From positions 1 through 50,454 of the IMG/VR virus record IMGVR_UViG_3300030328_001951: a stretch of 50,454 nucleotides of DNA. One strand, given 5' to 3'. This document shows positions 27,698-45,771 of the stretch, piece by piece. Each line of letters opens with the position of its first letter. The stretch's first letter is position 1. The stretch is from a virus. Lineage: Duplodnaviria > Caudoviricetes. A program made the position numbers and the translations under genes. Below the pieces are notes generated by a model. The model made no database searches. It was not told the DNA's origin and saw nothing but the letters and a program-made list of their open reading frames with translations.

Positions 27698-30600
27698 TTA
27701 ATCTCCTAAAAAACCTTGTATGTCTTCAAATTGTTCTGTTCTACGTTTAACTCTGTCAATTCTAGATTGTATCTGATTAACAGGTAATCTTAAAAATATT
27801 TCACCTGCTCGTTCTGGCTTATCTGCAAATTGAACAAGTTGTCTTATGCCTCTTCCAAATGGGAACATAGTATAAGCAGTATAACTACTAAACTTTTCCC
27901 AGTCACCAGTCAGCAGCTCCCATGCTGCATCAGGTATTCTAGCAACAGGAGGTTTCAACAAGTTTAATGCTCCTAGCTTGCTACCAAAAAATGCCATTTC
28001 TTTTTCACGCTTATCACCATATAAACTATCTGCTATAGATTGTACAGTATCTAAAGGTGGTGCTAAAGCTGTATCAAATATGCTAAACATAAATGCATTA
28101 GCTAATGCAAACATAAACATATCTATCATATATGTATTTTTAAATTTTTCATATTCTGGAGTGTTTTGTTTAAAACCATATAACTTAGCTTGTCTGTAAA
28201 ATTCTTTTCTTGTTCGTACTGAGTTCCAAACAAAAAGCTTAAACCTAGATAATACTTTACCAACAGCAGTTCTCATAAATGCTGGTCTTGCAGAATTTTG
28301 ATAAAGAAATTGAGTATTCTCTATACCTTTCATAGCCATGTCAAACACAAATGGGTCTGCTATAGACAATTCTTTACCCTCAACTCCAAATTTTTTAACA
28401 GCTTGTAATGCATGTGCAGTAAACGCATTTAAACGATTTATGCGTTCAGAGTTCTGCATAAAAAATGAACCATACTTAACCATTAAATCTTTTACACCAT
28501 ATCTATTAATAACTTCTAATGGTGTTTCTTTGCGATTTGCTTTATCTTTTATTGCTACAATTAAATCTCGTTTAAAATTTTCTATATTTATTCCAGCTTT
28601 TTTTAATCCATTAGTCATTTGAGTATTTACTTCAAATTCATTCTGTATAAAAGCATCAATAACACCTACCTCTGCTAGATGTTTTAACAAGTCTTTTCTA
28701 TTCTTAGCAAACTTTCCGTTATTTAATTTAATAACATCTTTACCATTGCTAGTTAATAACAAATCATAAATTTGTTTATTATTATAACTACTAAATAAAT
28801 TATTTAATCCTGCACTAGCAGCAGTCATAGCATTACCACTAAGTACATTAGTAGCCCATGTGCCAGTATTGGCTAGTAAGCTCATTAATTGATACTGGGC
28901 TTCCATCCTACCTAATTCATGTAATTTACGACTAAAGTACTCCTTTCTTGCCTCTTTTCCTTTAGGAGCATGAGTAAAAAAGGGAGCTGACATGTTTTTC
29001 TTTTGATAAAACTTTTCAAATATACCTATAACATTTTCATCTGATGTTAAATAAAACAAATTTCTTTTGTCTTTTAATTTTAATGGATCTCGACCACTTA
29101 ACATTCCTGATTGAAAATAAGATTGATGTCCTAATATACTTTGTAAATATAATTTTATATAATCCCCCCATACTTGAACATCATTTTTATAAACACTACC
29201 TTGTAATCTTTTTACTTCCTTTTCACTAGGTTTATAATTCCTATTTTTATTTAACATGTTATCTATTTCGTATTGACCTTTAATAGCAACAGCATTTTTA
29301 TAATAACCTCTAATAACTTTATTAATGTAATCTAAAATAACTTCTGGTCTTTTATCAAATCCTGGCGCATTAGCATCTCTAGCTTTTAAAACATTAGCTA
29401 AACTACCTTGCTCAGATACAGATGATTTTAAATCTGCTTCTGTTAATATAGCAGGTTCTACTAATTCAGAATAACTAAAAAATTCACCTGCTTGTATTAA
29501 TTTGTTTTCATTAGCTCTAACAAATTCTTTTGCTGCTTTTGCTGCTTTTTTACCTGACTCCTTTTCTGAAAGACCTGCTCCTTTAGCTTTTTTATAAGTA
29601 GCGTCATATATATCATTTGTTTTTTGCTCTAAATATAATGCTATTTCTTTTCTAGCAAATTCATTATATCCAAAATTCAAATGAGGCATGTACTTATCTA
29701 AATTAATTTCACCAATACCTTTATATTTTTTTCTCATACTTACTCTATAGGTAAGATTATCATTTTCTGGTTTATTTAATATAAGTCTTTCAAGTTTATG
29801 TTCTTTTTGGTATCTTTTAATTCCATCAGTACCAACTATATCAATAACTTCCTTTTTATTTATATTACCACTTTCAATAACACTTTTTCTAAAATGCTCT
29901 AAATCCATCTTACCTGATTTATCCCATCTCATATATTTATTTAAAACACCACCTGTAGCCTGATACCAGCCTAAAAAATCTTTATCCATAATCCATTCAC
30001 CTTGATTATTGGTAGCTTTATTTCCTTTAGCATCTTGAGTGTATATCCACTTTTGCATGCCTTCAAATAAATCTCTTCTAGCTGTATCTAATTTTTCTAA
30101 CGTTCTTAATGTTTTAGCATCAGTAGGTCTATAACCTTCTTCTACGTATTTAAATAAATCTTCCATTAATTTACTTTGCTGGTTAACATCAAAGTTTTTC
30201 AATATTCTTTCAAATGGTTTAAACAATTTTGTTTCTGCAAACTTTAAATCTTTACTTACATAGCGTTCAGATGTTTGTAAATATTTTGCTATTTCTCCAA
30301 TAGGACTAGTAAAACTAAATATAGGTTTTGTTTCAAACTTACCTTTACCTATTTGTACTTTACCAAAATAAGAAAAATACTTATTAATTAAACCCTTAGT
30401 AGATAACTTTTCATCAACAAACCTTGGGTCAAGAAACCAATACTTTAATTTAAATTCTAAATTGTATGGGTCTTGCAATCCTTTAAAATATCTATTAACT
30501 GCAATAACATCATTCATATTAAATGTTGTTGCTTCTCTTGGAACAATACCACCTTTAATAATTGAAGTAAAATACTCAAACCATTGTTCAAAATTATTCT

Positions 30601-33600
30601 TAACTACTCTATGTTCGTTAAGATTCTTTCTAAATTGTTTTACTTGTTCTAGTTGCTTATCATTTATAGCTAGTTTTTCTATAGCATCACTTGCTATCAT
30701 TTCGTTAATAGTTAAAAACTCTTCTTTAATTGGCTGCTTTTCTGCTGCAGTTTCTTTTTTAATAGGTTCTTTTCTTACGACACCAACACCTTCTAAATTA
30801 ACTCTATCTGTAGGTTTAGAACCTTTCATATTAGTTCTTCTAAATGTTATATTTATTCTTTCACCTCTTTTACCTGTAGGGTCTTTAGGTATTGAATGTA
30901 AAAAATTCTCTTGAGTTCCACCTTGCATTATTAACAAATCATTATTTTTTAAATTTATCTTATAATCCTTACCACCTTTTTTACTTGTTAAAATAAAAGG
31001 TACTTCTGCTCCAAAACTAACAGACGCTATAATAGGATTACTTCCTAATTCTGGTTCATTATCTGCATGTTTTCCAATGCTATCCTTACCAGTTCTATAT
31101 TTATTTACCAGTAAAGAATTAAATTCTACTCCAGTAAGTTCCTCTACTTGTTTTTTTAAAGCTAATAACTCTGGTGTAAATTTCTTTGGTTTTATAGGGT
31201 CTTTACCAGAATAAGAATAATCAGTACCTTTTTCTCCATAGTACGCTGTAAGTCTAGGTTCTTTTATATTCCTACCTCCTATTGTAATATACCCTTGTTC
31301 AAAATCAATTGATTTAACCAACGCTTCTACATCTATATTCTTAATCTTATCTTTTAAGTGAAGAATTTGTTTATTTTCATATGTAGTTATAGGGTCTTCT
31401 GGATTTTTTTCTTTTACAATTTTTATAGGATTATTATCTAATAATGCAGTATCTGTTTCTGCTGAACGTTCATGCATTGATTCCATTTTTTGATAAAAGT
31501 TTTTCTTTGTAGAAAATGGTATAGATAATGAACTATGTATATCTTTATAAAATGTATTTTTAGAAAACTTAGAACCCTTATATGCTTTCTGTCCTGTTAT
31601 AGGACTTAATAACAAGTTATGATAATAATCAAGAAACAATTTAGGATCTATTCCAAATTCATTTGCATTTTTAATTAATCGTTTATTAAAAGCATTTATA
31701 TCTGCTTCTACATCTAATTGTATTCCATCTTTATCTAGCTTATGTCTATTCTCAATACTTAATCTAGACTTTAACATCTTTACTTCTTTTACAATAGCAG
31801 GTATTACTTTTTCTATTACATTAGCTTTTATACCTTTATCGCTAAATGCTTTATGTATATCAATAAAATTTTTATTTAACAATTCTATTGTAGCAAAGTT
31901 ACCTAATGATTTACCTATGTAATCTAATGCTCTACCTATATTTCTTTGTTGTTGTATAGCATAACTTACTTGAGAAGGAGATGCTAAACTTAAATCAGAT
32001 AACAATAAGCCAAGGTGTTGTTCTATAAATTTTGACATTTCTTTTGTACTATATCTAGTCAATCCTGTAAACCCTTGTGATTCTATATCAGCATTAGAAT
32101 ATAATTTTTTATAATTATTTTGTATCGCTGGAAAATTTAAAAAATCGTATTGAATACCAGCATCGTACATCTTTTTTACTATCTGAGGTATAACAGTATC
32201 TGCTCCTTTAGCAAACAATTTAGATTGTACGTTATTTATGCCATGACCAACATCATATAAACTCATAGCACTTTTAGCTACAGGAGTTGATTGATACCTA
32301 GCATTACCTAAAACTAAACCTTTAGGATTTTTGCTTTTTTTATCTTGTTCAATCATTCTCCTACTAACATTCTCTAACCTAATTAAAGAATATGTTTTAT
32401 TATTTCTAACATAATTAGCTCTTTCACCAACAGTTAATCCAATATTTTTAGATATTTCTGGAGATACATTATCTAAAGCAATATCTTTAATTAATCTATA
32501 AGATACGTTTTTAACTTGAGAAGCAGGCTTAGCAATATTAACAGCGTCTTTTATTGCTGCTAAGTCACCAAACGGAGCTAACTCTAGTATGCTTTTATAT
32601 CCTATATAATCTTGAGTTACTTCACCAGTTTTTGTATCAATAGTTTCTTTTTTCTCACCTGTTTTAGCATTAAAACTTTCGACTTTAAACAAAGAATCAA
32701 ATAACATTTGTCTAAAAATAGGATAAGCTCTTATCGTAGGGTCTGTACTTGCATCAGCTGATTTATTAACAATAGCTGTACCTAAATCTCTAAAAAATTG
32801 GTCTCTAGTTTGACCTTCTATCTTTCCCTTTTTTAAAGATACTCTGGCAATATAATCAGTTAAAGAACCCTTTTCTAAATCTTGATAAGGAAACTCAACA
32901 CTACCTCCATTGTTAGCTATAAAATCTCTCCAGTTTTGCATTACGATTTTAGCACTTAAACCATAACCCAAACCACCTTTACCAGCTATACTATTCTGTG
33001 CAACTTTATGTCTATATGCAGGGCTAAACATAAACATTCTATTGTAAACATCATCTTCTCTATTATATTCTTTATCTTTTGGATTTTTGTTATAACCAGT
33101 AAAGCGTTGAACTTCCTTATCAGTCATACCTTCTTGTCTAAACAATTTGTTTATAAATTTGTCATAAGAACTTCCTTCTTTCCAATGACTTCTCTCATCC
33201 TTTACTTTAATATAATAGTCTCTTAAATTTTTATTAAATCCTTGGAATATTTTGATACTGTCTGCGTCTTTGTCTGCACCTCCAAGGTATATATTATCCT
33301 TGTGGTGCGTGAACGAGCCAGAGCCTCTTTGCCCTGTAAAACCCCTAAAGCGTAAGACCCTCGTGCCAGACATACTATCAGCAGGAGTGCGAATGACAAC
33401 GAGGTCAAATGTGTTATTCCACGCCTCAAGGTTTTTTCTGGAGTAGTTCCCAAGATATTGCTCCCAAGCTTCGCCCAACGTGACTCGCTTGTCGATAGTT
33501 TCCATAGTAGCTTTGCTATCATTTTTTTGTGCATATTCTAATTTCCTTTGGTATATGGCTTCTAAATCTTCTTTAGGTATGTGCTTATGCTCTACAAGCA

Positions 33601-36600
33601 TACGCTTAAACATATTATCTAAATATAAATCTCCTTCATTTAATCCTTTCTTTTGTTCTTTTGTTAATGCAGGGTCAACAATCTTATTAATTAATTGGTC
33701 AGGAGTATAAGCTTTTAACCAAGACTTACCAGCAGTCTCAATAAATGGATTAGCATATCTCTTTACTAAATATTTCTTTAATGCATTATGGTAATTGTCT
33801 CTAAACAAAACATTTCTTACTGCATAAGTACCAGCCATAGCTTCAGCTAATATTTTATTACTTGCATGAAACTCTCTATAGTTACTATTAGAATCAAATT
33901 CAAAATCTAAATCTAAAAATCCATCTGTTTCTAATCTCATTAACTTATCCATAAACTTTTTAGCTAATGGTGTGCTAGGGTCTTTTAATAATATCTTAGT
34001 TACAAAATCCATAGGTAGCTCCATTACACCTAATTCATTTGCTTCAAATAACTTTATAAATTTTTCTATTTTTTTAGGGTCATATTGTTTTACTAACTCT
34101 TGACCAGCTCTACTACCAGCTAAAGATCTATCTAAAACATCACTTATATATTCTTTAGCAAATCCCTTTGCTTGTATATTATTTGTTTGCCCATAAGACT
34201 GCAATGGTAACTCATCGCCTTTTACAGACTTTACAGGATTTTCATACGTACCTGTACTTACTTGTAAATGTTCTATAGGTAACGTATGAACAATTGTGCC
34301 TCTAGATGATAATTTACCAGTAGAAGAATCTATTGATAACTGAGATGATTTTAAATCTCCTCTAAGCTTTGCACCAGAATTAAATACAATAAAATCTAAA
34401 CCTCTACTTTCCATAAATTTATTCCATTCTGTAGAAGCTCTTTGACCATTAGATTTAGTAAACAAAGCAGATAAACCTGTTTGCCCTCCTATTACAGGCT
34501 TTATATGACCTGCTCTAGGGTCAAAACCTAAAACATCTAATGTTCTATCAAAAAATTTATGTGCTATAATTAAACCACCATCAGTATCACTTTTACCTGT
34601 AGTGTTTATATCATTAACTATTATACCTCTCATCTGTCCATCAGGATTAGTTTCAGCATAACTAGCTTTTTGCATTGGTGCCATTCTATTTGTTAATAAT
34701 GTCATTCTTTTATTTAAATCAGCTACTGATTTTCCATAACCTTCATGCATAAGTAAGTTTTTTAAATTTAAATTTCTTACAGTAGTTTGATTATTTACTA
34801 ATCCATTTAACATAGCATGATGTAAAATATTACTTACCCATTTTCTTTCATAGTTTTTATCACTACCAAATATATTACGCTCAGAAGCTTTACCGTCTTC
34901 AAATGCTCTTTCTATGCCCTTAGATTCTAAAGGGTCATTAGACATAGCGTTTTTAATCATATCTTTTGTAACAATTACCCCTTGTAAATTATCTACAAAA
35001 TCTGCTGTTAATAAAAAGTCTTTATCTTTAACACCACTAAATATATATTTACCTTTTTCAGCTAATGCTTCTTCTATCTTAATTAATTTTTTTCTACCCA
35101 CATTAAATGAAATGCCATCTCCATCCATTCTATGTGATAATACTTTGTATGGTTCACCATTTTTATCTACACCATGTGTTAAAAATCTAAAACCTTTTGC
35201 GTATCCTAAATAATCTAATGGCATCTTATCATACTTTTCACCAATAGATACATTATTAATTTGTTCATTCTTTGTAAAATCAACAGATATATTATTACCT
35301 GTACCTTCTATAAAAAATGCAACTTCTTGTGCAGGTTCTGTTTCAGTCCACCATTTCTTGCGAAGATTTCTTTCATGTTTTTTAAATGTCTCTGGGTCTA
35401 AATTAGATTTTACATCTTCTATATAAGATTCTAATCGTCTATCTGTACCATCTTCACCCATGCTTTTTTTAGTAGCATCAATTATTATTTTTTCAAAAGA
35501 ATCAAAATCTTTGTATACAACAGAATCTTTTTCATTCTTTTTTACATCTTTATATACTTCCTTAGTAATATTAGATATAGAATCTTTTTCCTTAGTATAG
35601 GGATCCATAAAATCACTTTGCATTTCTGCATATAATTGTTCTGATGTACTTACTGCATTAGCAATTTTACCAAATGCATCGACAGTCATACCTTCTCTAG
35701 CTTTCCATCTGTAATATTCAGCTATCTTTGTATTTTTACCTGCCTCACTATATGTATTCCAATTAGGGTCTATTGATTCATAATGTTTAATTGCAGCATT
35801 TCTCCAATTAAAGTTTTTATAATTATGTTGTAACCAACCTAATGCACTACCTGTTGCACCTTCTAATTGTTCAGAGTTTTTAAACGAGGGAGCTGGATGT
35901 TCATTTAAAATATAATCCTGTGCTTTTTTATCTATAGTATTCCAATCTTTAGATTGTTGTGGGTCTACTATGTCTCTTATGTCTCTAGTAAATCCATTCT
36001 TTTTTGAACCCATTATCCACTCACCAGCAGCAGCTTCTCTAGCTGGTCTAGTATTGTATCCAAAAAACCCACCCAATAAATACTCATATATTTGCATCTC
36101 TGTGGGGTCACCTCTTAGGGTACTAGGTAATCCCATAAAAGCAGATGCTACACTAGCTCTTAATATTTTATTAGCTTGGTCTACTTGTGCGGGAGTACCT
36201 TTATATAAATTACCTACAGATACAAAATTACCTATACCTCCAAAAGCTCCACCTGCTATAGCACCACCTACAAAAGAATCAGCTATAACATCAGAACCTT
36301 TCCATATATTACTTACAGCACTAGCTACACCTAAACCTAATGCTTCTGTTCCTATGGCTCTAGGTATTGCTCCTTTTTTTAAATAATCTATTGTTTCTAA
36401 ACCTCGTTTAGATAATTGACTATCTATAATATTCTTTGTACCTCTTTGAAACATCATAGGTACAGACATAGCATCTAAGGTATTAATACCATCTTCAATC
36501 GCTTTATATAGCTTACTATCACCTTTAATTTTTCTTAAAGCAGCATTACGTCTAAATAAAGATAATGGAGCTTTTAAAATCGCAGGAGCAAAACCTGCAA

Positions 36601-36871
36601 GATGACCTAGTTGCCTAAATATAGCTTCACCTGTATTGCGTGGTTCTTTAGGTACTAAATCAAAAGTAGTAAGACCTTCTATAAACCCAGACTGCGCTTG
36701 TTGCACAGCTCTGGTAAGACTAAAATTATCTTCTAGTCTTTTAAAACTTACTTGGTTGTTTTCTGCTAAACGTTCCAGCTCATCAAGCTGGTCGTCAGAA
36801 AACATATCAGGATTAGACCTGTATGTGTTGATTAGGCTTTGTACTTTAAAGCCATCGTAATAGTTATCCAA
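27698..36871 (-). CDS. Giant internal virion protein: two-barrel (DxDxD) RNA polymerase + inserted AlkB dioxygenase + C-terminal ejection-protein domain
   Basis: 3057 aa. DTDGG, RTPADS and LGGADKDADS polymerase motifs; AlkB HAD...H...RINITFR; Gly/Ala-rich N-terminus; C-terminal TQFLYQ...RFKLF typical of large ejection proteins. Confidence 0.75.
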   Translation of the reverse strand: MDNYYDGFKVQSLINTYRSNPDMFSDDQLDELERLAENNQVSFKRLEDNFSLTRAVQQAQSGFIEGLTTFDLVPKEPRNTGEAIFRQLGHLAGFAPAILKAPLSLFRRNAALRKIKGDSKLYKAIEDGINTLDAMSVPMMFQRGTKNIIDSQLSKRGLETIDYLKKGAIPRAIGTEALGLGVASAVSNIWKGSDVIADSFVGGAIAGGAFGGIGNFVSVGNLYKGTPAQVDQANKILRASVASAFMGLPSTLRGDPTEMQIYEYLLGGFFGYNTRPAREAAAGEWIMGSKKNGFTRDIRDIVDPQQSKDWNTIDKKAQDYILNEHPAPSFKNSEQLEGATGSALGWLQHNYKNFNWRNAAIKHYESIDPNWNTYSEAGKNTKIAEYYRWKAREGMTVDAFGKIANAVSTSEQLYAEMQSDFMDPYTKEKDSISNITKEVYKDVKKNEKDSVVYKDFDSFEKIIIDATKKSMGEDGTDRRLESYIEDVKSNLDPETFKKHERNLRKKWWTETEPAQEVAFFIEGTGNNISVDFTKNEQINNVSIGEKYDKMPLDYLGYAKGFRFLTHGVDKNGEPYKVLSHRMDGDGISFNVGRKKLIKIEEALAEKGKYIFSGVKDKDFLLTADFVDNLQGVIVTKDMIKNAMSNDPLESKGIERAFEDGKASERNIFGSDKNYERKWVSNILHHAMLNGLVNNQTTVRNLNLKNLLMHEGYGKSVADLNKRMTLLTNRMAPMQKASYAETNPDGQMRGIIVNDINTTGKSDTDGGLIIAHKFFDRTLDVLGFDPRAGHIKPVIGGQTGLSALFTKSNGQRASTEWNKFMESRGLDFIVFNSGAKLRGDLKSSQLSIDSSTGKLSSRGTIVHTLPIEHLQVSTGTYENPVKSVKGDELPLQSYGQTNNIQAKGFAKEYISDVLDRSLAGSRAGQELVKQYDPKKIEKFIKLFEANELGVMELPMDFVTKILLKDPSTPLAKKFMDKLMRLETDGFLDLDFEFDSNSNYREFHASNKILAEAMAGTYAVRNVLFRDNYHNALKKYLVKRYANPFIETAGKSWLKAYTPDQLINKIVDPALTKEQKKGLNEGDLYLDNMFKRMLVEHKHIPKEDLEAIYQRKLEYAQKNDSKATMETIDKRVTLGEAWEQYLGNYSRKNLEAWNNTFDLVVIRTPADSMSGTRVLRFRGFTGQRGSGSFTHHKDNIYLGGADKDADSIKIFQGFNKNLRDYYIKVKDERSHWKEGSSYDKFINKLFRQEGMTDKEVQRFTGYNKNPKDKEYNREDDVYNRMFMFSPAYRHKVAQNSIAGKGGLGYGLSAKIVMQNWRDFIANNGGSVEFPYQDLEKGSLTDYIARVSLKKGKIEGQTRDQFFRDLGTAIVNKSADASTDPTIRAYPIFRQMLFDSLFKVESFNAKTGEKKETIDTKTGEVTQDYIGYKSILELAPFGDLAAIKDAVNIAKPASQVKNVSYRLIKDIALDNVSPEISKNIGLTVGERANYVRNNKTYSLIRLENVSRRMIEQDKKSKNPKGLVLGNARYQSTPVAKSAMSLYDVGHGINNVQSKLFAKGADTVIPQIVKKMYDAGIQYDFLNFPAIQNNYKKLYSNADIESQGFTGLTRYSTKEMSKFIEQHLGLLLSDLSLASPSQVSYAIQQQRNIGRALDYIGKSLGNFATIELLNKNFIDIHKAFSDKGIKANVIEKVIPAIVKEVKMLKSRLSIENRHKLDKDGIQLDVEADINAFNKRLIKNANEFGIDPKLFLDYYHNLLLSPITGQKAYKGSKFSKNTFYKDIHSSLSIPFSTKKNFYQKMESMHERSAETDTALLDNNPIKIVKEKNPEDPITTYENKQILHLKDKIKNIDVEALVKSIDFEQGYITIGGRNIKEPRLTAYYGEKGTDYSYSGKDPIKPKKFTPELLALKKQVEELTGVEFNSLLVNKYRTGKDSIGKHADNEPELGSNPIIASVSFGAEVPFILTSKKGGKDYKINLKNNDLLIMQGGTQENFLHSIPKDPTGKRGERINITFRRTNMKGSKPTDRVNLEGVGVVRKEPIKKETAAEKQPIKEEFLTINEMIASDAIEKLAINDKQLEQVKQFRKNLNEHRVVKNNFEQWFEYFTSIIKGGIVPREATTFNMNDVIAVNRYFKGLQDPYNLEFKLKYWFLDPRFVDEKLSTKGLINKYFSYFGKVQIGKGKFETKPIFSFTSPIGEIAKYLQTSERYVSKDLKFAETKLFKPFERILKNFDVNQQSKLMEDLFKYVEEGYRPTDAKTLRTLEKLDTARRDLFEGMQKWIYTQDAKGNKATNNQGEWIMDKDFLGWYQATGGVLNKYMRWDKSGKMDLEHFRKSVIESGNINKKEVIDIVGTDGIKRYQKEHKLERLILNKPENDNLTYRVSMRKKYKGIGEINLDKYMPHLNFGYNEFARKEIALYLEQKTNDIYDATYKKAKGAGLSEKESGKKAAKAAKEFVRANENKLIQAGEFFSYSELVEPAILTEADLKSSVSEQGSLANVLKARDANAPGFDKRPEVILDYINKVIRGYYKNAVAIKGQYEIDNMLNKNRNYKPSEKEVKRLQGSVYKNDVQVWGDYIKLYLQSILGHQSYFQSGMLSGRDPLKLKDKRNLFYLTSDENVIGIFEKFYQKKNMSAPFFTHAPKGKEARKEYFSRKLHELGRMEAQYQLMSLLANTGTWATNVLSGNAMTAASAGLNNLFSSYNNKQIYDLLLTSNGKDVIKLNNGKFAKNRKDLLKHLAEVGVIDAFIQNEFEVNTQMTNGLKKAGINIENFKRDLIVAIKDKANRKETPLEVINRYGVKDLMVKYGSFFMQNSERINRLNAFTAHALQAVKKFGVEGKELSIADPFVFDMAMKGIENTQFLYQNSARPAFMRTAVGKVLSRFKLFVWNSVRTRKEFYRQAKLYGFKQNTPEYEKFKNTYMIDMFMFALANAFMFSIFDTALAPPLDTVQSIADSLYGDKREKEMAFFGSKLGALNLLKPPVARIPDAAWELLTGDWEKFSSYTAYTMFPFGRGIRQLVQFADKPERAGEIFLRLPVNQIQSRIDRVKRRTEQFEDIQGFLGD
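33223..33534 (-). CDS. Candidate overprinted (+1 frame) 103-aa basic membrane protein
   Basis: AAAGGA RBS 9 nt before the ATG, local GC3 shift in the host frame, one hydrophobic helix. Confidence 0.45.
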   Translation of the reverse strand: MHKKMIAKLLWKLSTSESRWAKLGSNILGTTPEKTLRRGITHLTSLSFALLLIVCLARGSYALGVLQGKEALARSRTTRIIYTLEVQTKTQTVSKYSKDLIKI

Positions 36872-42200: not shown

Positions 42201-42460
42201 ATTTGCTTTAAATAACCATCGCTATTATCAATGTATGTTAATTGATGTGTACCATTATTATTTATCATAGCCATACGTTTTGCATCTACAGCTGATTTAA
42301 TAGCAGTAGCATCTGATTGTATAGCCATTAACGAACCACTTTGTCCATAAGGGTCTATGTTTTCACTATAAACTGCAGCATCATCTGGAATATCTCTGTC
42401 ATCTGCATTATAGATATTGCCAGATTCAAATGCTTTTATTTCAAATAATTCTTTAGGCAC
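39239..42460 (-). CDS. Tail nozzle / stabilisation protein (P22 gp10 / tail tubular B-like beta-propeller)
   Basis: 1073 aa. N-terminal DxRDIPDDA...ENID, GIGC propeller repeat, C-terminal WYSKKF...KKLYKV. Confidence 0.65.
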   Translation of the reverse strand: MPKELFEIKAFESGNIYNADDRDIPDDAAVYSENIDPYGQSGSLMAIQSDATAIKSAVDAKRMAMINNNGTHQLTYIDNSDGYLKQIADVYTGSPAISNLDASDLGAGTIPAMQTNNKEVHIGLGQSKDVKWVGNIPHSQFGGSVPSGLQSENAELVKPSPFPAMHTVVNDSNNTHVYGIQQSGNYIYKFDVSKGVLIRRSEYFFTKTLAMCLSSDNNLWVIDEVSSNLIVLKIDLDNMDVITSRPLNNFSGDTYVTDIMECGSVLWLASGNRSTSSDYLWNISVSNLTTSSSASTVTSRTPYKGADASSVSPNIGDWGSSLTGDTTIAPDFSLPKLPLVRVTGSNDYIGIVVKPVPDGAYVKWYYGSGTNFIGHDDSTTNASSVKGQIRYFLQVVKNDITANDKLNHLGNKGLVYAFSSDFNAAFGSVYLTKQDTNSTYLNWIERGTSGSQSTLYRLTKVAYNHSQTSIVGGTRNTIGANIDIDDAVLDEKSNSYNVFAGTSQARWAAGASGALAIKAEGEVVLTISDNADVDGSINPSHDQFYATSFTYDGYQESPLSSWTHIDNGSISQDALNVKIDIYKANLSKRVTHVNLYRSSASVGTATQPSGFFRLIKSVPLKSGWLATDSSTTNPNWGSYYSKTIIDSGASYASYEARTGISEALTITLPKYGLSAKVNNFLYITDCSHADIDDATNYLFKSRPFNFDQFNWAKDFLLLPNKATAMESFNGRLYVFSENETYVVNPDGMYIEDTIKGIGCRNQNGVVSSEIGMCFIDKNSIYLHNGQGINDIGAKIKKAHQIDDTYNSYSSLEKLCNYSTDDYSGDIVATYDSHRKAFCFFYTYKYTVSTSFTHSCNLTNNDTTVTSDVANSNIAPNQVVTGNHIPADTKVASVDNDNRFDINNNATATAVSTLTFTTNTTYYVPQCLVYTMPKNRWDVWNRTNSSTTTDFNTYGAVHGKNNELLVSDTDNGLIQPFDPKSSTRLDNFKWYSKKFTMGESTTDKKLYKVEILSEDNSPTITVNTAENSTSYTALTNKKISRHAQVKIAVTGDSSATIDALRLVFRRLRRTKAMS

Positions 42461-43214
42461 CTATTAATTTTCCATTATATGTTGTGTAGCCATTACTTAT
42501 TGTTAAGACTACTAAATTAAAATTTCCATTAGACAATATATCACATATACCTACGTTATGACTCCAATTAGTTGGTCTACCTTTTAAATAACTTTTAGTC
42601 ATATCAGTTAAACATCCCATTGAATGTGCCATGTGGCTACCGCTAATATGTTGGATTGTGGCTTTTTGACAATCGTGGGTATGTCCATAGATGATGTTAC
42701 ATCCCATTTGCAAGGCATGAGTCCTTGCGTGTGACACTCCCATAAAATGTCCCCCATGATAAGCGTACAGTTTGCTTCCAAGTACTTTAAATACTTCTCC
42801 ATATTTGTGCCATTCATATCCTCTTTCATCAAATTTAAATGCTGTTCTGCTTAAATACTGTGTTAAATAGGGGTTTTCTTCGACAAAGTTGTCGAACCAG
42901 ATTTCGTGGTTTCCTTGTGCAAAGATTTTTTTCTTGCATTGTACCAATTGTAAAACTTCATCAATCTCGTCCAATCCTTTATTTCCATCTGCTATTTCCT
43001 TATCTATTGCTGGTAATTGATATTCAACTGGTGGTCTTTTCTTTTTAGACCATTGCCAATGACTAACTGATTCACCATCAATTGTATCGCCTAGTAATAA
43101 AAATGCTGAAGGCTTTACTTCTTTTAATACATTTAATGCACATGCAAATGCTTTTTTATCGTGGTTTGGAAAGTGTGTATCTGGAAAGATAACCACTCTG
43201 TCTTTTATTTTCAC
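42453..43214 (-). CDS. Calcineurin-like metallophosphoesterase
   Basis: DTH, GD, GNHE, HG and GHTH motifs in canonical order. Confidence 0.9.
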   Translation of the reverse strand: MKIKDRVVIFPDTHFPNHDKKAFACALNVLKEVKPSAFLLLGDTIDGESVSHWQWSKKKRPPVEYQLPAIDKEIADGNKGLDEIDEVLQLVQCKKKIFAQGNHEIWFDNFVEENPYLTQYLSRTAFKFDERGYEWHKYGEVFKVLGSKLYAYHGGHFMGVSHARTHALQMGCNIIYGHTHDCQKATIQHISGSHMAHSMGCLTDMTKSYLKGRPTNWSHNVGICDILSNGNFNLVVLTISNGYTTYNGKLIGA

Positions 43215-43228
43215 AGTAAACTCCCATG

Positions 43229-43627
43229 TTACTCTTTTAACTCGAAGTGAACTAAATCGTCAAAATTATTGTCTTTAGTAGTTCTTCTACCTTGACTCAA
43301 ACTTGAATCACTCCAATCGCCTCCCCAACGAATGTTAATTCCCATCTTAGCTGCTATCCCCAAAACAAAACCACCAAGGTAATGAAAATCATCCCTAGCA
43401 TTCCAATCAATTGGATAAGGAGCAATGTCCACAGCTTTCCCAGCGACATGCTTACCAAATTTAGTTTTGCTTTTACCTTGTGCAACCAATTCATTTTGTC
43501 TCTCCTGACTTCTTAAACCCTCTATTACAGTAATATCAAAGTACTTACATACTTCGTTTAATACATTAACTAACTTAGAGTCTACCCCTTTAAGTCTTTC
43601 ACGAGATCTTTTACCAAACTTTGGCAT
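43229..43627 (-). CDS. Endolysin, M15 L-alanyl-D-glutamate peptidase (T5-like)
   Basis: EGLRS..RQ, KH..GKAVDIAPYP, WGGDW, DLVHFE. Confidence 0.9.
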   Translation of the reverse strand: MPKFGKRSRERLKGVDSKLVNVLNEVCKYFDITVIEGLRSQERQNELVAQGKSKTKFGKHVAGKAVDIAPYPIDWNARDDFHYLGGFVLGIAAKMGINIRWGGDWSDSSLSQGRRTTKDNNFDDLVHFELKE

Positions 43628-43860
43628 TACTTCTTTACTATTCCCTCAATTACATCTGTAACTAAATCAACACACTTTTCAAAAAATATCTGTTCTTTTT
43701 CTTCAGATACAAAAGGTATATCTATTTTTTTATTAATTTTAGATGCTAAGACTTCCTTAAACTCATCAGACTGTATATGGTCTACCATACCATCTGCGTA
43801 TTCATTTACGATATGGTCTTTAGCTTTATCTATAATTCCTGCTAATATTGCTTTACTCAT
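43627..43860 (-). CDS. Hypothetical protein, lysis region
   Basis: 77 aa with an INKKIDIPFVSEEKE motif. Confidence 0.65.
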   Translation of the reverse strand: MSKAILAGIIDKAKDHIVNEYADGMVDHIQSDEFKEVLASKINKKIDIPFVSEEKEQIFFEKCVDLVTDVIEGIVKK

Positions 43861-44003
43861 TTTTGTTTCCTTATTATGTTTATTTTATAACTTAAATATA
43901 TTATAGTCATAATTGCAACTATGCATTGTAAAAACAAACTTGCATGTGCTAAAGATAAGCTATAATTAAAAATACTTGCTGATGCTACTTTTACACTATC
44001 CAT
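43857..44003 (-). CDS. 48-aa holin-like membrane peptide
   Basis: MDSVKVASASIFNYSLSLAHASLFLQCIVAIMTIIYLSYKINIIRKQK; overlaps both neighbours. Confidence 0.55.
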   Translation of the reverse strand: MDSVKVASASIFNYSLSLAHASLFLQCIVAIMTIIYLSYKINIIRKQK

Positions 44004-44280
44004 TATTTCTTAATCTTTCTACTTCTCTTTCTAAGTATTCAATTCTTTGATTTTGTTTAATATCAGCTGGTATTTCAGCATCTTGATTGGCTTCAGCATC
44101 TTCTTCTATATCTATAATATGTTCTTCGTTCATTGCAACTTGATATTCTAAAAAAGATATACGAGCATTTAATTGACTATATCCCCACACAAGCATAACT
44201 ACAAAAGTAACAGCTTGTATAATCATAGGCAGACTTATAGTCATTAAACTACTATCTGATATTGGTTTAGTGTTTTCCAT
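43996..44280 (-). CDS. Single-TM coiled-coil membrane protein
   Basis: TM segment followed by WGYSQLNARISFLE; paralog-like to 44685-45023. Confidence 0.65.
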   Translation of the reverse strand: MENTKPISDSSLMTISLPMIIQAVTFVVMLVWGYSQLNARISFLEYQVAMNEEHIIDIEEDAEANQDAEIPADIKQNQRIEYLEREVERLRNNG

Positions 44281-44584
44281 TTACTCTACTTAAACTTCCT
44301 TTTATTTCCGATACTTGATTGTCCAAATCATTAATCTCCTTCGTAAGTGAATCAAACTTCCTGTCAAGTTTGTCGTCACTTTTATTCCAGCGGTTAATAA
44401 GCTTAATAACCATACTCTCCATATTCTCAAGTGTTTCACTTTGTCCTTTATTTTCAACTTTTAAATTCTGTAATGATTCTGCTTGTTCATTTCCACGCTT
44501 ATTCATTGAATAAACCATAAACACAAACATTGCCCCTACGACACCAATCATACCCGCTTCTGAATAAACTGCTAGAAAGTCCAT
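44267..44584 (-). CDS. Holin-like TM + coiled-coil protein
   Basis: N-terminal TM GMIGVVGAMFVFMVY and a C-terminal coiled coil. Confidence 0.6.
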   Translation of the reverse strand: MDFLAVYSEAGMIGVVGAMFVFMVYSMNKRGNEQAESLQNLKVENKGQSETLENMESMVIKLINRWNKSDDKLDRKFDSLTKEINDLDNQVSEIKGSLSRVNGKH

Positions 44585-44685
44585 TATTCTTCCTCATATG
44601 AATTGCATTTGCTACAGACCCAGTTATCTGTATTGTTTATCGGCTTATCACAATCTGTACAATGGTTTGGTATTGGTTGATGCAT
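44584..44685 (-). CDS. 33-aa Zn-ribbon peptide
   Basis: CTDC...CSKC; TAATG coupling at both ends. Confidence 0.55.
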   Translation of the reverse strand: MHQPIPNHCTDCDKPINNTDNWVCSKCNSYEEE

Positions 44686-45023
44686 TACTTTTTCTTTTTT
44701 CTCCAGCTAAAAGGGTTAAGGTTTAATTCTTTTTCAAAGAAAGATATGCGTTCTTCCATTGCTTCTCTTTCTTTCTGTTCTTCTATCATATGTTTATCTA
44801 CAAGTTCTTCAATGTTGGCAGTAGCAAGTTCCATTCCTCGCTCAAGTTCTGCAATTCTATTTGTAATTTGTAGGTATCCATAAACAATACCAGCGATAGC
44901 CACAAACAACTGACCAAGCCACTTGATATTAATATGGAGGGAAAAATTATCATCAATAATTCCCGTCCTGTAACTCCTAGCTGTCTTTGGCTTCTCATTC
45001 ACTTCTTTTGAACTGTTTCCCAT
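44685..45023 (-). CDS. Single-TM coiled-coil membrane protein (i-spanin-like?)
   Basis: TM segment followed by YGYLQITNRIAELE. Confidence 0.6.
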   Translation of the reverse strand: MGNSSKEVNEKPKTARSYRTGIIDDNFSLHINIKWLGQLFVAIAGIVYGYLQITNRIAELERGMELATANIEELVDKHMIEEQKEREAMEERISFFEKELNLNPFSWRKKKK

Positions 45024-45274
45024 TTTTCATGTCTATGACACCAGTTATCACCTACAAGTATTCCACCTTGTGCAGTAGTTCTTACATACCAATGATTAAC
45101 GCTATCTTGGTCTGTTATAATCATAAAGTCTGTTGTAATAGAGTCAGTAGGAGCTATATCTACTCCTGCAATAATCCAATTCCCACTACACCCACTACAA
45201 GTAGTAATAATTACTAGTAATAAAACTAAAAAAGAAATCCACCCTGCAAATACAGTTTTTTCATTTTTATTCAT
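44999..45274 (-). CDS. Lipoprotein (o-spanin-like?)
   Basis: Signal peptide with a CSGC lipobox, in the lysis cluster. Confidence 0.55.
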   Translation of the reverse strand: MNKNEKTVFAGWISFLVLLLVIITTCSGCSGNWIIAGVDIAPTDSITTDFMIITDQDSVNHWYVRTTAQGGILVGDNWCHRHEKWETVQKK

Positions 45275-45771
45275 GGTTTGTAATACTTATAAAAATCTTC
45301 AGGATTCTCTGTATCTACCACAACAAAGATTGGAGATACGATACTATTACCTGTACCTGACCCACCAATAATGGCGTATGCATATAAACCATTTTGGTAA
45401 GGACTCTTGATTGTATCATTGTCAAATAAATGTAAAAAACTTGTGTCACTAAATACTGGTACAAACTGAGCCTCTAATAATTCTTCAACTTCTATTCTTC
45501 TGTTATCATTATCATCTAATAGCACACCTACGCTACTAGTTCTATGTGCTTGACTTGGGAACTTACCCATGCCATAAACTTCTACTTGTTGGTTATACCA
45601 CATAGTAGATGCTTTTGTAATTTTTTCTAAATTTGCTTTTGTCTGTTTAGCTTTAGCTCCCTCACCGATACGACTAAAAGCAGGAGCTGCGGTAGTAGCC
45701 AAAGTAGCCATGATAGCCATGGTAACTGCAAACTCAGCCAAAGAGTTGCCTCTATTCCCCAACCCATTCAT
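45271..45771 (-). CDS. Type IV pilin / pseudopilin-like protein
   Basis: Class III signal RG|NSLAEF with Glu at +5, hydrophobic helix to P-x-F, then amphipathic AKAKQTKANLEKI and G-x-FP. Confidence 0.75.
   Translation of the reverse strand: MNGLGNRGNSLAEFAVTMAIMATLATTAAPAFSRIGEGAKAKQTKANLEKITKASTMWYNQQVEVYGMGKFPSQAHRTSSVGVLLDDNDNRRIEVEELLEAQFVPVFSDTSFLHLFDNDTIKSPYQNGLYAYAIIGGSGTGNSIVSPIFVVVDTENPEDFYKYYKP

What the first reader, a model, noticed from the sequence alone, without database searches (positions are those of the whole stretch)
33223..33534. Overprinted membrane-protein gene across the polymerase active site
Seen: a 103-codon +1-frame ORF with AAAGGA-N9-ATG, the same RBS style as other genes here. 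It spans the RTP and DKDAD motifs. The host frame switches here to C/G-ending codons (ATC GAC AAG CGA GTC ACG...CTC GTT GTC ATT CGC), avoiding +1 stops. The product is basic with one hydrophobic helix (LTSLSFALLLIVCLARGSYALGVL). Established: ssRNA phage single-gene lysis proteins are often overprinted on replicase genes. Inference: a de novo lysis, exclusion or ejection-accessory protein. Caveat: similar GC3 patches occur at other catalytic motifs in this genome.
Basis: partly seen in the sequence, partly recalled or inferred. Interest (0 to 1): 0.7.

Follow-up and report, generated by a model that had tools for sequence, protein, structure and literature searches.

The report
Hidden gene inside phage polymerase gene
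A marine phage carries a second, conserved gene for a small membrane protein, written in a shifted reading frame across the catalytic centre of its giant virion RNA polymerase gene, a clear case of one stretch of DNA encoding two proteins.

Summary
The 103-codon +1 ORF (33223..33534, minus strand) lies in a 3057-aa gene. A confident model of that gene's product best matches the crAss-like phage phi14:2 virion RNA polymerase. The ORF covers the invariant RxP and DxDxD catalytic motifs.

- **Length:** it is the longest same-strand off-frame ORF in the genome.
- **Composition:** it coincides with the strongest GC3 patch in the genome.
- **Conservation:** the frame is open in 43 of 61 homologous loci. 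These form one large clade with two losses. Identity to the window over the 211-residue query segment ranges from 91% to 33% among them.
- **Chance:** under a strict local shuffle of synonymous codons, 1.45 of 34 representative lineages should be stop-free. 21 are. No other frame behaves this way.
- **Synonymous change:** host-synonymous change is suppressed about 2.4-fold in the overlap.
- **Initiation:** a Shine-Dalgarno-like motif precedes the start in 18 of 21 lineages.
- **GC3 link:** the GC3 excess is present only where the ORF is present.
- **RNA structure:** no consensus structure was found.

The product is a basic, single-pass membrane protein with no stand-alone homologue. Its function is untested. 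A canonical endolysin and spanin-like genes elsewhere argue against a sole-lysis role.

The parts
33223..33534 (-). Overprinted +1-frame gene: 103 codons plus stop. Product P0002.
   Evidence: Open in 43 of 61 homologous loci. Strict permutation and synonymous-rate tests.
33544..33549 (-). Shine-Dalgarno-like AAAGGA, 9 nt upstream of the ATG at 33534..33532.
   Evidence: The AAGGA/GGAG style is shared with other gene starts in the window: 18 of 37 starts examined. An SD-like 4-mer precedes the start in 18 of 21 lineages, against 7.2% background.
33337..33405 (-). Segment encoding the predicted transmembrane helix of the +1 product (about residues 44-66).
   Evidence: Kyte-Doolittle maximum 2.05. 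It lies inside a continuous predicted helix, residues 32-102, in a model of mean pLDDT 83. It overlaps the host RTPADS motif.
27698..36871 (-). Host gene: a 3057-aa single-chain two-barrel RNA polymerase of the crAss-like virion-RNAP type, lying in the structural module.
   Evidence: AF2 model of aa 580-1400: pLDDT 88.5, pTM 0.86. Foldseek top hit 6vr4_A at E=5.2e-9, then QDE-1, RDR2, AR9 nvRNAP and cellular largest subunits. About 120 homologues of 1868-3298 aa.
33383..33391 (-). Host RTP motif (R1161, P1163). I read it as the counterpart of the 'RxP' before the catalytic loop of beta-prime-like barrels.
   Evidence: R1161 and P1163 are invariant in 32 aligned homologues. The equivalence to the beta-prime motif is recalled, not tested.
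33260..33274 (-). Host DKDAD, the DxDxD metal-binding motif (D1200, D1202, D1204).
   Evidence: All three aspartates are invariant in 32 homologues and in 31 segment sequences.
33227..33541 (-). GC3-rich patch of the host frame (codons about 1111-1215).
   Evidence: GC3 excess is +0.141 in 21 ORF-bearing lineages against -0.013 in 13 ORF-lacking lineages, Mann-Whitney p=3.4e-6.

Best explanation
This is a real protein-coding gene created by overprinting.

How it is made: ribosomes start independently at ATG 33534, which has its own Shine-Dalgarno-like site, on the long late mRNA of the virion RNA polymerase gene. They read the +1 frame for 103 codons across the polymerase's catalytic double-psi beta-barrel.

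What it makes: a basic protein of about 100 aa with one membrane-spanning helix.
- The N-terminal part, about 43 residues and positively charged, is probably cytoplasmic.
- The transmembrane helix continues into a helical C-terminal tail of about 35 residues.

How it arose: the gene arose within one large clade of marine phages. Raw material was already in the host gene: a T-rich, hence hydrophobic, +1 reading of the F-x-L-L-x-I-R-x-P-A-D-S motif, and SD/ATG-like strings. It has since been kept by selection. That selection explains the local shift of the host frame to C/G-ending codons and the avoidance of NTA codons before purines.

What is shown: the frame-specific absence of stops, suppressed synonymous change, start and SD conservation, and the phyletic pattern.

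What is inferred:
- Translation, membrane insertion and topology.
- The role. My best guess is a late-expressed accessory inner-membrane protein. My own odds: about 30% an ejection or virion-RNAP-linked accessory, about 25% superinfection exclusion or host interaction, about 20% lysis timing, and the rest something else.
For: 1. Conservation. The +1 frame has no stop over a fixed span (-48..+35 codons around host R1161) in 43 of 61 loci. These are 42 of the 48 rows of one clade (SH-aLRT 99) plus L066. Identity to the window over the 211-residue query segment ranges from 91% to 33% among the ORF-bearing loci.

2. Frame-specific stop avoidance. I shuffled synonymous codons only among same-amino-acid positions inside the span. 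The expected number of stop-free lineages among 34 representatives is 1.45; 21 are observed. The Poisson-binomial tail is 1e-35 if lineages are independent. Stop-free counts in the other frames are 0 of 34 (+2) and 1, 8 and 0 of 34 (antisense). ORF-lacking lineages carry about as many stops as their shuffles predict.

3. Suppressed synonymous change.
- The inside/outside ratio is 0.23-0.76 in 13 of 15 phylogenetically separate ORF-bearing pairs.
- It is 1.03-1.22 in 4 of 6 ORF-lacking pairs.
- Pooled over 9 close pairs, host-synonymous/alt-nonsynonymous change is 0.113 inside against 0.276 outside. dNN/dNS is 0.44 against a baseline of 0.67.
- The three windows with the highest synonymous-codon identity in the whole gene are residues 1096-1155, and only in the ORF-bearing set.

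4. Initiation signals. A start codon lies 45-65 codons upstream of the anchor in every ORF-bearing representative, in several different host-protein contexts. An SD-like 4-mer sits at -18..-7 in 18 of 21 lineages, against 411 of 5672 (7.2%) other +1-frame start codons in the same genes. A +1 stop lies 0-1 codons upstream of the start in the window and several other lineages.

5. The GC3 excess follows the ORF, not the motif.

6. RNA structure. There is no Rfam match and no consensus RNA pair in 20 lineages. The single-sequence fold has z = -1.48.

7. Product features.
- The hydrophobic maximum is at least 1.84 in 22 of 23 products.
- The N-side net charge is +3 to +7 in 22 of 23.
- The AF2 model has mean pLDDT 83.

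8. No stand-alone homologue. A profile search of 1.84 billion representatives found only the same overlapped ORF of a related phage and a repeat artefact.

9. Natural variation. A natural variant present in contigs of a DNA run and of an RNA library keeps the ORF open.
Against: - There is no direct evidence of translation. No Ribo-seq or proteomics exists, and the RNA-library contigs only show that the region occurs in such a library.
- The hydrophobic segment and some SD/ATG strings also occur in ORF-lacking outgroups, for example L051, L054 and L069. They are partly by-products of the host protein sequence.
- In six representative lineages (L036, L052, L029, L030, L033, L024) the only suitably placed start is TTG; in L066 it is GTG.
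- Across deep comparisons, synonymous conservation is raised only over the N-terminal half of the overlap. Over residues 1156-1215 it is at or below the gene average.
- One ORF-lacking pair (L021/L032) also shows a ratio of 0.47, p=0.02.
- dNN/dNS is only modestly below baseline, from 22.5 and 22.5 differences.
- Two subclades lost the ORF, so it is dispensable in some backgrounds.
- The lineage-independence assumption behind the 1e-35 figure is not strictly true.
- No function could be assigned. Pfam and PHROGs gave no hit and the ESM Atlas gave no usable hit.
Confidence: 0.78

Rival explanations
1. The conserved object is a nucleotide-level element, such as an RNA structure, an sRNA or a protein-binding or regulatory site inside the polymerase gene. 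The open +1 frame would be a by-product of its GC-richness.
For: There is a strong local GC3 patch. Nucleotide identity across relatives at about 51% protein identity is very high (90% mean column identity). Synonymous change is suppressed.
Against: - GC-richness alone does not open the frame. With the local codon set kept exactly, stop-free arrangements have a probability of 0.0004-0.42 per lineage, yet 21 of 34 lineages are stop-free.
- The +2 frame is never open.
- There is no Rfam hit, no consensus pair in RNAalifold on 20 lineages, and an unremarkable fold energy (z = -1.48).
- Promoter-like sites are at chance level: 7 found against 5.0 +/- 1.9 in shuffles, with no terminator-like site.
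- The C-terminal half of the overlap is not conserved at synonymous sites between deep lineages, yet it stays open.
Confidence: 0.06
2. The +1 frame is translated, but the peptide itself does not matter. Translation of the frame would tune expression or folding of the polymerase. Alternatively the frame is entered by a programmed +1 shift, giving a truncated polymerase N-terminal part with a hydrophobic tail.
For: The +1 amino-acid sequence evolves faster than the host sequence: 6 changes against 2 in the natural variant. dNN/dNS is only modestly below baseline. An SD-like element upstream of a shift site is known from prfB (recalled).
Against: - A +1 stop lies 0-1 codons upstream of the start codon in the window and in several other lineages. 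A shift would therefore have to happen inside the ORF.
- The SD-to-start spacing suits initiation: the 5' end of the 4-mer lies at -18..-7 in 18 of 21 lineages.
- Product length stays at 85-117 aa, and the layout of a basic N-side followed by a hydrophobic helix is kept across lineages.
- Host-synonymous/alt-nonsynonymous change is suppressed 2.4-fold. That means the encoded residues matter, not only the absence of stops.
Confidence: 0.08
3. It is a single-gene lysis protein or holin: the phage's lysis effector, overprinted on its polymerase as in ssRNA phages.
For: It meets the three screening criteria used for embedded lysis genes in ssRNA phages: an ORF of at least 25 codons, an SD, and a predicted TMD. 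Most functional embedded genes there lie in the +1 frame of rep (PMC7693330, passages read). The product has a basic N-terminal part followed by a hydrophobic domain. The gene sits in the late module.
Against: - The genome already has an endolysin (43229..43627), an Rz-like spanin (44267..44584) and at least four further small membrane or coiled-coil ORFs at 43857..45274, about 10 kb away.
- Two subclades lost the ORF.
- ssRNA-phage embedded lysis genes turn over fast and mostly avoid catalytic regions. This ORF is old and sits on the catalytic motifs.
- There is no lipobox or holin family hit.
Confidence: 0.12
4. It is a chance or compositional artefact: a long ORF that arises because conserved catalytic motifs in this genome use C/G-ending codons.
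For: Weaker GC3 patches occur at other conserved motifs, such as the metallophosphoesterase and the terminase P-loop region. Long open frames are common on the antisense strand.
Against: - In 13 ORF-lacking lineages the same catalytic motif has no GC3 excess (-0.013).
- 21 lineages are stop-free against 1.45 expected under the strictest null.
- Synonymous suppression is found mainly in ORF-bearing lineages.
Confidence: 0.02

Closest known systems
Embedded lysis genes (sgl) of ssRNA phages, e.g. those inside rep (Chamakura et al. 2020, PMC7693330; passages read)
   Same: A small ORF wholly embedded in the +1 frame of the polymerase gene, with its own SD and one transmembrane domain. It has no homologues, and its origin is presumed de novo.
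   Different: - This is a dsDNA tailed phage with its own endolysin and spanin-like genes.
- The ORF lies on the catalytic core, whereas sgl genes mostly avoid conserved catalytic regions.
- It is retained across a deep clade instead of turning over rapidly.
- Lytic activity is not tested.
Lambda Rz1 inside Rz: embedded o-spanin architecture (recalled; Kongari et al. 2018, PMC6139136, seen only in the search listing)
   Same: A same-strand +1 gene wholly inside a late gene of a dsDNA phage, with independent initiation and a small envelope-associated product.
   Different: - The host gene is a polymerase, not a functional partner.
- The product has no lipobox; the one Cys in the window's product is not conserved.
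- It has a transmembrane helix in the middle, not a signal peptide.
phiX174 E within D, and K within A/C (recalled; overprinting reviewed in Pavesi 2021, PMC8227390, seen only in the search listing)
   Same: A classic overprinted small membrane protein in a phage. The younger frame evolves under the constraints of the older one.
   Different: Those are tiny ssDNA genomes under strong size pressure. This is a 50-kb genome, and the overlap lies on a 9-kb gene.
Virion-packaged RNA polymerase gp66 of crAss-like phage phi14:2 (PDB 6vr4), for the host gene
   Same: A single-chain two-barrel fold is the best PDB match (E=5.2e-9, prob 1.00). The DxDxD motif is invariant. It is a giant protein encoded among structural genes.
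   Different: - Only 11% sequence identity over the aligned columns, and TM-score 0.42 normalised to the model.
- No sequence-level hit to it in PDB searches.
- The genome is about 50 kb with Erf and primase-helicase genes and no crAss-like markers tested.
- Some members, including this one, carry an AlkB-like domain.
- Packaging into virions is not shown.

Membership tests
Overprinted (embedded same-strand) protein-coding gene | An alternative frame open for longer than chance allows, given the host protein and local codon usage | tested here: met
   It is the longest off-frame sense ORF in the genome. Local-permutation P(no stop) is 0.025 for the window. 21 of 34 lineages are stop-free against 1.45 expected.
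Overprinted (embedded same-strand) protein-coding gene | Open frame, start and RBS conserved in relatives | tested here: met
   The frame is open in 43 of 61 loci. A start lies 45-65 codons upstream of the anchor in all 21 ORF-bearing representatives. An SD-like motif is present in 18 of 21, against 7.2% background. In seven representatives the start is TTG or GTG.
Overprinted (embedded same-strand) protein-coding gene | Reduced synonymous variation of the host frame within the overlap | tested here: met
   The ratio is 0.23-0.76 in 13 of 15 independent pairs. The pooled rate is 0.113 inside against 0.276 outside. It is not seen in 4 of 6 ORF-lacking pairs.
Overprinted (embedded same-strand) protein-coding gene | Direct evidence of translation (Ribo-seq, peptides) | not testable with these tools
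   Only contigs of one RNA library cover the region. They cannot show translation.
Single-gene lysis protein (Sgl) of the ssRNA-phage kind | Small embedded ORF with SD and TMD | tested here: met
   Criteria as given in PMC7693330.
Single-gene lysis protein (Sgl) of the ssRNA-phage kind | It is the phage's lysis effector, in a genome without a holin-endolysin system | tested here: not met
   An endolysin (phrog_465, E=6.8e-42) and an Rz-like spanin are present, plus further small membrane ORFs.
Single-gene lysis protein (Sgl) of the ssRNA-phage kind | Causes lysis when expressed | not testable with these tools
   Needs an expression experiment.
Holin | Small membrane protein encoded next to the endolysin, with a family match | tested here: not met
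   It has one TMD. But it lies about 10 kb from the endolysin, inside the polymerase gene, and has no Pfam or PHROG hit.
Embedded o-spanin (Rz1-like) | Lipoprotein signal with a lipobox Cys, embedded in or next to an i-spanin gene | tested here: not met
   No conserved Cys or lipobox appears in the alignment of 21 products. The host gene is a polymerase.
Two-barrel single-chain RNA polymerase of the crAss-like virion-RNAP type (host gene) | Double-psi beta-barrel fold resembling gp66 / QDE-1 / cellular largest subunits | tested here: met
   The model has pLDDT 88.5. Foldseek gives 6vr4_A at E=5.2e-9, followed by QDE-1, RDR2, AR9 nvRNAP and cellular RNAPs.
Two-barrel single-chain RNA polymerase of the crAss-like virion-RNAP type (host gene) | Invariant DxDxD metal-binding motif | tested here: met
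   D1200, D1202 and D1204 are invariant in 32 homologues.
Two-barrel single-chain RNA polymerase of the crAss-like virion-RNAP type (host gene) | Packaged in the virion and injected; transcribes early genes | not testable with these tools
   Only the position among structural genes is seen.

The most novel reading that the evidence does not exclude
A gene born de novo on top of the catalytic barrel of an injected virion RNA polymerase has been kept for a long time because it works together with that polymerase. One possibility is an inner-membrane protein that helps the next generation's polymerase and DNA cross the membrane. Another is that it blocks the same entry route against superinfecting relatives. 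Embedding it in the polymerase gene would keep the pair co-inherited. It would also be a rare, datable example (one gain, at least two losses) of how a new membrane protein evolves using almost only the synonymous sites of an invariant active site.
Probability: 0.2. Interest if true: 0.8.

Novelty: new member of a known kind. Interest (0 to 1): 0.62.

Why it matters
Overprinted genes are systematically missed by gene callers. Well-supported examples in tailed dsDNA phages are few. This one has four notable features.

- **Unlikely place.** It lies across the invariant RxP...DxDxD catalytic core of a polymerase. In ssRNA phages, embedded genes mostly avoid such regions.
- **Age and spread.** It is old and widespread in a clade of abundant marine phages. 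The window's own stretch was found in contigs of 20 runs from 13 studies.
- **Clean natural control.** Sister and basal lineages have the same motif but neither the ORF nor the GC3 shift.
- **Explains a compositional anomaly.** The patch could otherwise be misread as codon optimisation of catalytic motifs.

It gives a tractable system for studying how a new membrane protein arises and how dual coding constrains an enzyme's active-site codons. It also adds an unannotated gene to every genome of this clade.

Tried and rejected
**Searches for relatives of the locus**
- Searches of the phage GenBank collection with the host segment (tblastn) and with 7 kb of DNA (blastn) found nothing.
- Sequence searches of the PDB with the whole host protein or a profile found only AlkB homologues and a spurious coiled-coil hit. 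The polymerase identity came only from the fold search.
- The genome-contig scan gave one locus. It is a 46,061-base contig in a Prochlorococcus single-cell assembly, 28% identical. I think it is the same contig as the ORF-lacking locus L051, because the two lengths are equal; this is not otherwise checked. It is a host hint for that distant lineage only.

**Searches with the +1 product**
- Pfam and PHROGs gave no hit.
- The ESM Atlas gave no usable hit.
- The profile search found no stand-alone homologue.

**RNA and regulatory signals**
- Rfam, RNAalifold and a single-sequence fold gave no support for an RNA element.
- The promoter/terminator scan showed nothing above chance and no minus-strand promoter-like site upstream of the ATG.

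**Other ideas considered**
- A lipobox or embedded-spanin reading of the product is rejected: there is no conserved Cys.
- A programmed +1 frameshift is rejected as the main route because of the stop just upstream of the start and the SD spacing.

**Reads**
- Laying contigs of four runs showed one variant strain that keeps the ORF. In that single variant the ORF stretch was not less variable than its flanks: 10 differences in 312 nt against 7 in the 323 nt before it and none after it in run X4.
- Contigs cannot show RNA ends, strand or level, so they give no expression evidence.

**Not available or not used**
- Earlier findings of this scan were not open.
- I did not use complex prediction, because I make no binding claim.
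- I did not scan metagenome contigs.

**Literature**
- Four searches listed no paper describing an overlapping gene in a two-barrel virion RNAP gene.
- Supplementary files were not consulted.
Full report
**1. What is at the coordinates**

The window is a complete 50,454-base viral record of about 33% G+C.
- On the minus strand, 27698..36871 is a 3057-codon ORF.
- Inside it, in frame +1, lies an ATG-started ORF of 103 codons at 33223..33534.
- AAAGGA lies 9 nt before the ATG.
- The same AAGGA/GGAG style precedes 18 of the 37 gene starts I examined in this genome.
- The ORF covers host residues 1113-1217, including RTP (1161-1163) and DKDAD (1200-1204).

**2. What the host gene is**

Pfam, PHROGs and sequence searches of the PDB recognise only an AlkB-like 2OG-Fe(II) oxygenase domain at residues 1844-2011.

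I aligned residues 580-1400 with 30 homologues and obtained an AlphaFold2 model with mean pLDDT 88.5 and pTM 0.86.
- Its best Foldseek match in the PDB is 6vr4_A, the virion-packaged RNA polymerase of crAss-like phage phi14:2 (E=5.2e-9).
- QDE-1, plant RDR2, the AR9 non-virion RNAP and the largest subunits of cellular RNAPs follow.
- In 32 aligned homologues, R1161, P1163, D1200, D1202 and D1204 are invariant.

The ORF therefore does lie across the catalytic barrel of a two-barrel RNA polymerase.

The gene sits in the minus-strand structural block: terminase, portal, major head protein, fibre-like proteins, endolysin and spanin-like genes. Erf, primase-helicase and RusA genes are on the other strand.

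**3. Is it more than chance in this genome?**

- Among the 30 putative genes I took (39,678 nt), it is the longest same-strand off-frame ORF: 103 codons, then 74, 66, 63 and 60. The +2 frame never exceeds 44.
- A +1 stop can arise only from an NTA or NTG codon followed by a suitable purine. All 11 L/I/V codons at such positions upstream of the ORF's own stop use a harmless synonym. The genome uses the stop-making synonym 52-71% of the time at those positions.
- The TTA and ATA codons that do occur in the patch sit before C or T.
- Host GC3 rises from 0.156 to 0.53 at codons 1126-1185. This is the strongest such patch in the genome.

**4. Relatives**

The host protein has at least 129 homologues of 1868-3298 aa in metagenomes, many from marine surveys.

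A protein-pattern scan of viral contigs is unbiased with respect to synonymous sites. It matched 215 stretches, 209 of them relatives. The best 80 were kept, giving 71 loci.
- With the window added there are 72 sequences. 62 contain the segment and 61 contain the R-x-P-x-D-[SA] anchor. L047 lacks the anchor and was dropped.
- In 43 of the 61, the +1 frame has no stop from 48 codons before to 35 codons after the anchor.
- The open runs are 91-129 codons long.
- The first start codon lies 45-65 codons upstream of the anchor.
- Stops fall at +35, +45, +51, +55/56 or +72.

A maximum-likelihood tree of 800-residue host segments (quick search, LG+G4, midpoint root for drawing only) places 42 of the 43 in one clade of 48 rows (SH-aLRT 99).
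- The six ORF-less rows in that clade form two subclades: L043/L042/L059 and L021/L053/L032.
- Of the 13 rows outside the clade, only L066 has the open frame.
- The fewest changes of state on the tree is 4.
- The tool warned that several long branches meet among the basal rows. The order of basal lineages is therefore unsure, and gain cannot formally be told from loss.
- The polymerase fold is far older than this clade, so I infer that the +1 frame is the younger one.

**5. Is the open frame selected, or a by-product of GC3?**

I used the strictest null I could devise. For each locus I shuffled synonymous codons only among positions with the same amino acid within the 84-codon span, so that the local codon composition stays exactly the same.
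- The probability of a stop-free +1 frame is 0.025 for the window.
- It is 0.0004-0.42 for the other ORF-bearing lineages, and below 0.05 for most of them.
- ORF-lacking lineages carry about as many stops as their shuffles predict, for example 7 against 7.1 and 5 against 5.5.

I then took 34 representative lineages, one per terminal cluster, dropping 27 near-duplicate rows.
- 21 are stop-free, against 1.45 expected.
- The Poisson-binomial tail is 1e-35. That figure assumes independent lineages, which is only approximately true.
- The +2 frame is stop-free in 0 of 34, and the three antisense frames in 1, 8 and 0 of 34.

The GC3 excess of the patch over the rest of the gene is +0.141 in the 21 ORF-bearing representatives. 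It is -0.013 in the 13 ORF-lacking ones, Mann-Whitney p=3.4e-6. The GC3 shift therefore belongs to the ORF and not to the catalytic motif.

**6. Synonymous variation**

In 15 phylogenetically separate ORF-bearing pairs, I compared the fraction of same-amino-acid codons that differ inside the span with the fraction in the rest of the gene.
- The inside/outside ratio is 0.23-0.76 in 13 pairs.
- The two exceptions (1.02 and 1.07) are the most or nearly the most diverged pairs.
- In 6 ORF-lacking pairs the ratio is 1.03-1.22 in four, 0.87 in one and 0.47 in one, L021/L032.

An OLGenie-style count over 9 close pairs gave the following:

| Measure | Inside the overlap | Rest of the gene |
|---|---|---|
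| Host-synonymous / alt-nonsynonymous change | 0.113 (51.5 of 454.7 sites) | 0.276 |
| dNN/dNS | 0.44 | 0.67 |

The dNN/dNS difference is modest and rests on 22.5 and 22.5 differences.

Across deep lineages, the three 30-codon windows with the highest synonymous-codon identity in the whole gene are residues 1096-1155 (0.72-0.75, against 0.556 overall).
- This holds only in the ORF-bearing set.
- Over residues 1156-1215 the value is 0.46-0.51, at or below the average.

The N-terminal half of the +1 product is therefore the more constrained.

**7. Initiation**

The start is ATG in most lineages, TTG in six representatives and GTG in L066.
- An SD-like 4-mer begins 18 to 7 nt upstream in 18 of 21 representatives.
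- The background is 411 of 5672 (7.2%) other +1-frame start codons in the same genes.
- The motif is supplied by different host residues in different lineages, for example Q-R-K, E-R-K, K-G and E-G-E. That argues for selection.
- In the E-G-E lineages, and in at least one ORF-lacking outgroup (L069), it is partly a by-product of the host sequence.
- In the window and several other lineages a +1 stop lies 0-1 codons before the start. This, with the spacing, speaks against entry by frameshifting.
- No promoter-like site above chance precedes the ORF. I infer translation from the long late mRNA.

**8. RNA-element rival**

- An Rfam scan of 32900..33900 at E up to 1 found nothing.
- RNAalifold on 20 lineages predicted no pair.
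- The window's own 345 nt fold with z = -1.48.

**9. The product**

- The products are 85-117 aa long.
- The 19-residue hydrophobic maximum is at least 1.84 in 22 of 23 products; L018 reaches 1.42.
- The net charge on the N-terminal side is +3 to +7 in 22 of 23. The C-terminal side ranges from -3 to +6.
- By the positive-inside rule (established knowledge) this suggests an N-in single-pass protein.
- AlphaFold2 with the 21-sequence alignment gives helices at 2-15, 19-27 and 32-102, with mean pLDDT 83 and pTM 0.37.
- In the alignment of 21 products only G24 is invariant. W11, I27, L43, L47 and L52 are nearly so.
- The hydrophobic stretch is the +1 reading of the host F-x-L-L-x-I-R-x-P-A-D-S segment with T at third positions. 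It is also present in ORF-lacking outgroups, so it was available raw material.
- A profile of the 21 products searched against 1.84 billion representative proteins found only a 140-aa call of the same overlapped ORF in an L007-like phage, plus a repeat artefact.
- Pfam, PHROGs and the ESM Atlas gave nothing.

**10. Function**

No test was possible.

The genome has an endolysin (43229..43627, phrog_465, E=6.8e-42) and an Rz-like spanin (44267..44584). Several small ORFs with a transmembrane segment, some with a coiled coil, lie at 43857..45274. A sole-lysis role therefore seems unlikely to me.

What can be said is limited. It is a late-module, probably inner-membrane accessory protein. It is dispensable in two subclades and is inseparably linked to the gene of a protein that is probably injected. 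My odds are given under the best explanation.

**11. Other context**

- The window's stretch occurs in contigs of 20 runs from 13 studies, all marine or aquatic.
- A variant strain seen in DNA run X4 and in contigs of RNA library X17 differs at 10 positions in the ORF. It keeps the ORF open, with 6 changes in the +1 product and 2 in the polymerase.
- A distant relative (28% identity over the matched segment) lies on a 46-kb contig of a Prochlorococcus single-cell assembly. This is a host hint for that lineage only.

**12. Literature**

- Four full-text searches listed nothing on an overlapping gene in a two-barrel virion RNAP.
- Passages of PMC7693330 state that functional embedded lysis genes of ssRNA phages lie mostly in the +1 frame of rep, but mostly in its less conserved parts. 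Here the overlap lies on the catalytic core.
- PMC8227390 and PMC6139136 were seen only in a search listing.
- Statements about lambda Rz/Rz1, phiX174 E and K, MS2 L, prfB and the beta-prime RxP motif are recalled.

**13. Verdict**

This is a real, conserved overprinted gene. It is a new instance of a known kind, in an unusual place, and its function is unknown.

Noticed in passing
window 30839..31342 (-), host residues 1844-2011: An AlkB-like 2OG-Fe(II) oxygenase domain is fused inside the giant polymerase: PF13532 E=1.6e-29, and human ALKBH3 E=1e-25 in the PDB. Only some homologues carry it (PF13532 flagged in a minority of rows). A nucleic-acid demethylase travelling with a probably injected polymerase is unusual.
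   Followed up: partly
window 44798..44998 (-), inside gene 44685..45023 (-): A 66-codon ATG-started +1 ORF is embedded in a gene for a protein with a transmembrane segment and a coiled coil, in the lysis region. Its product has a basic N-terminus, a hydrophobic stretch and an L-V-S-C string that fits a lipobox. This looks like the lambda Rz/Rz1 embedded-spanin layout. I only read the sequence.
   Followed up: partly
window 45271..45771 (-): The 166-aa product starts with a prepilin-like N-terminus: G-N-S-L-A-E followed by a hydrophobic helix. The type IV pilin signal pattern is recalled. There is no PHROG hit.
   Followed up: no
window 5111..5260 (-), first 50 codons of gene 2351..5260: This is the second strongest GC3 patch in the genome (0.50, against 0.16 for the gene), at the N-terminus of a fibre or virion structural protein. 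I did not examine it for overlap or recombination.
   Followed up: no
window 42608..42832 (-), inside the metallophosphoesterase gene 42453..43214: A 74-codon TTG-started +1 ORF, the second longest off-frame sense ORF, overlaps a moderately GC3-rich stretch with the GHTH motif. It has no obvious SD.
   Followed up: no
window 43857..45274 (-): A run of small ORFs, each with one hydrophobic segment and some with coiled coils, lies next to the endolysin. The ORFs are 48, 94, 105, 112 and 91 aa. The 91-aa one has a lipoprotein-like T-C-S-G-C string. This is probably the holin and spanin set.
   Followed up: partly
L077 (a genome contigs record) and L051: A 46,061-base contig carrying a distant homologue of the giant polymerase sits in a Prochlorococcus single-cell assembly. 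It has the same length as the viral contig behind L051, which belongs to an ORF-lacking basal lineage.
   Followed up: no
window 30462..30914 (+) and 35970..36386 (+): Long antisense ORFs of 150 and 138 codons lie opposite the polymerase gene, in the antisense frame that is generally poor in stops. That frame is stop-free over the studied span in 8 of 34 lineages, with no relation to clade.
   Followed up: partly
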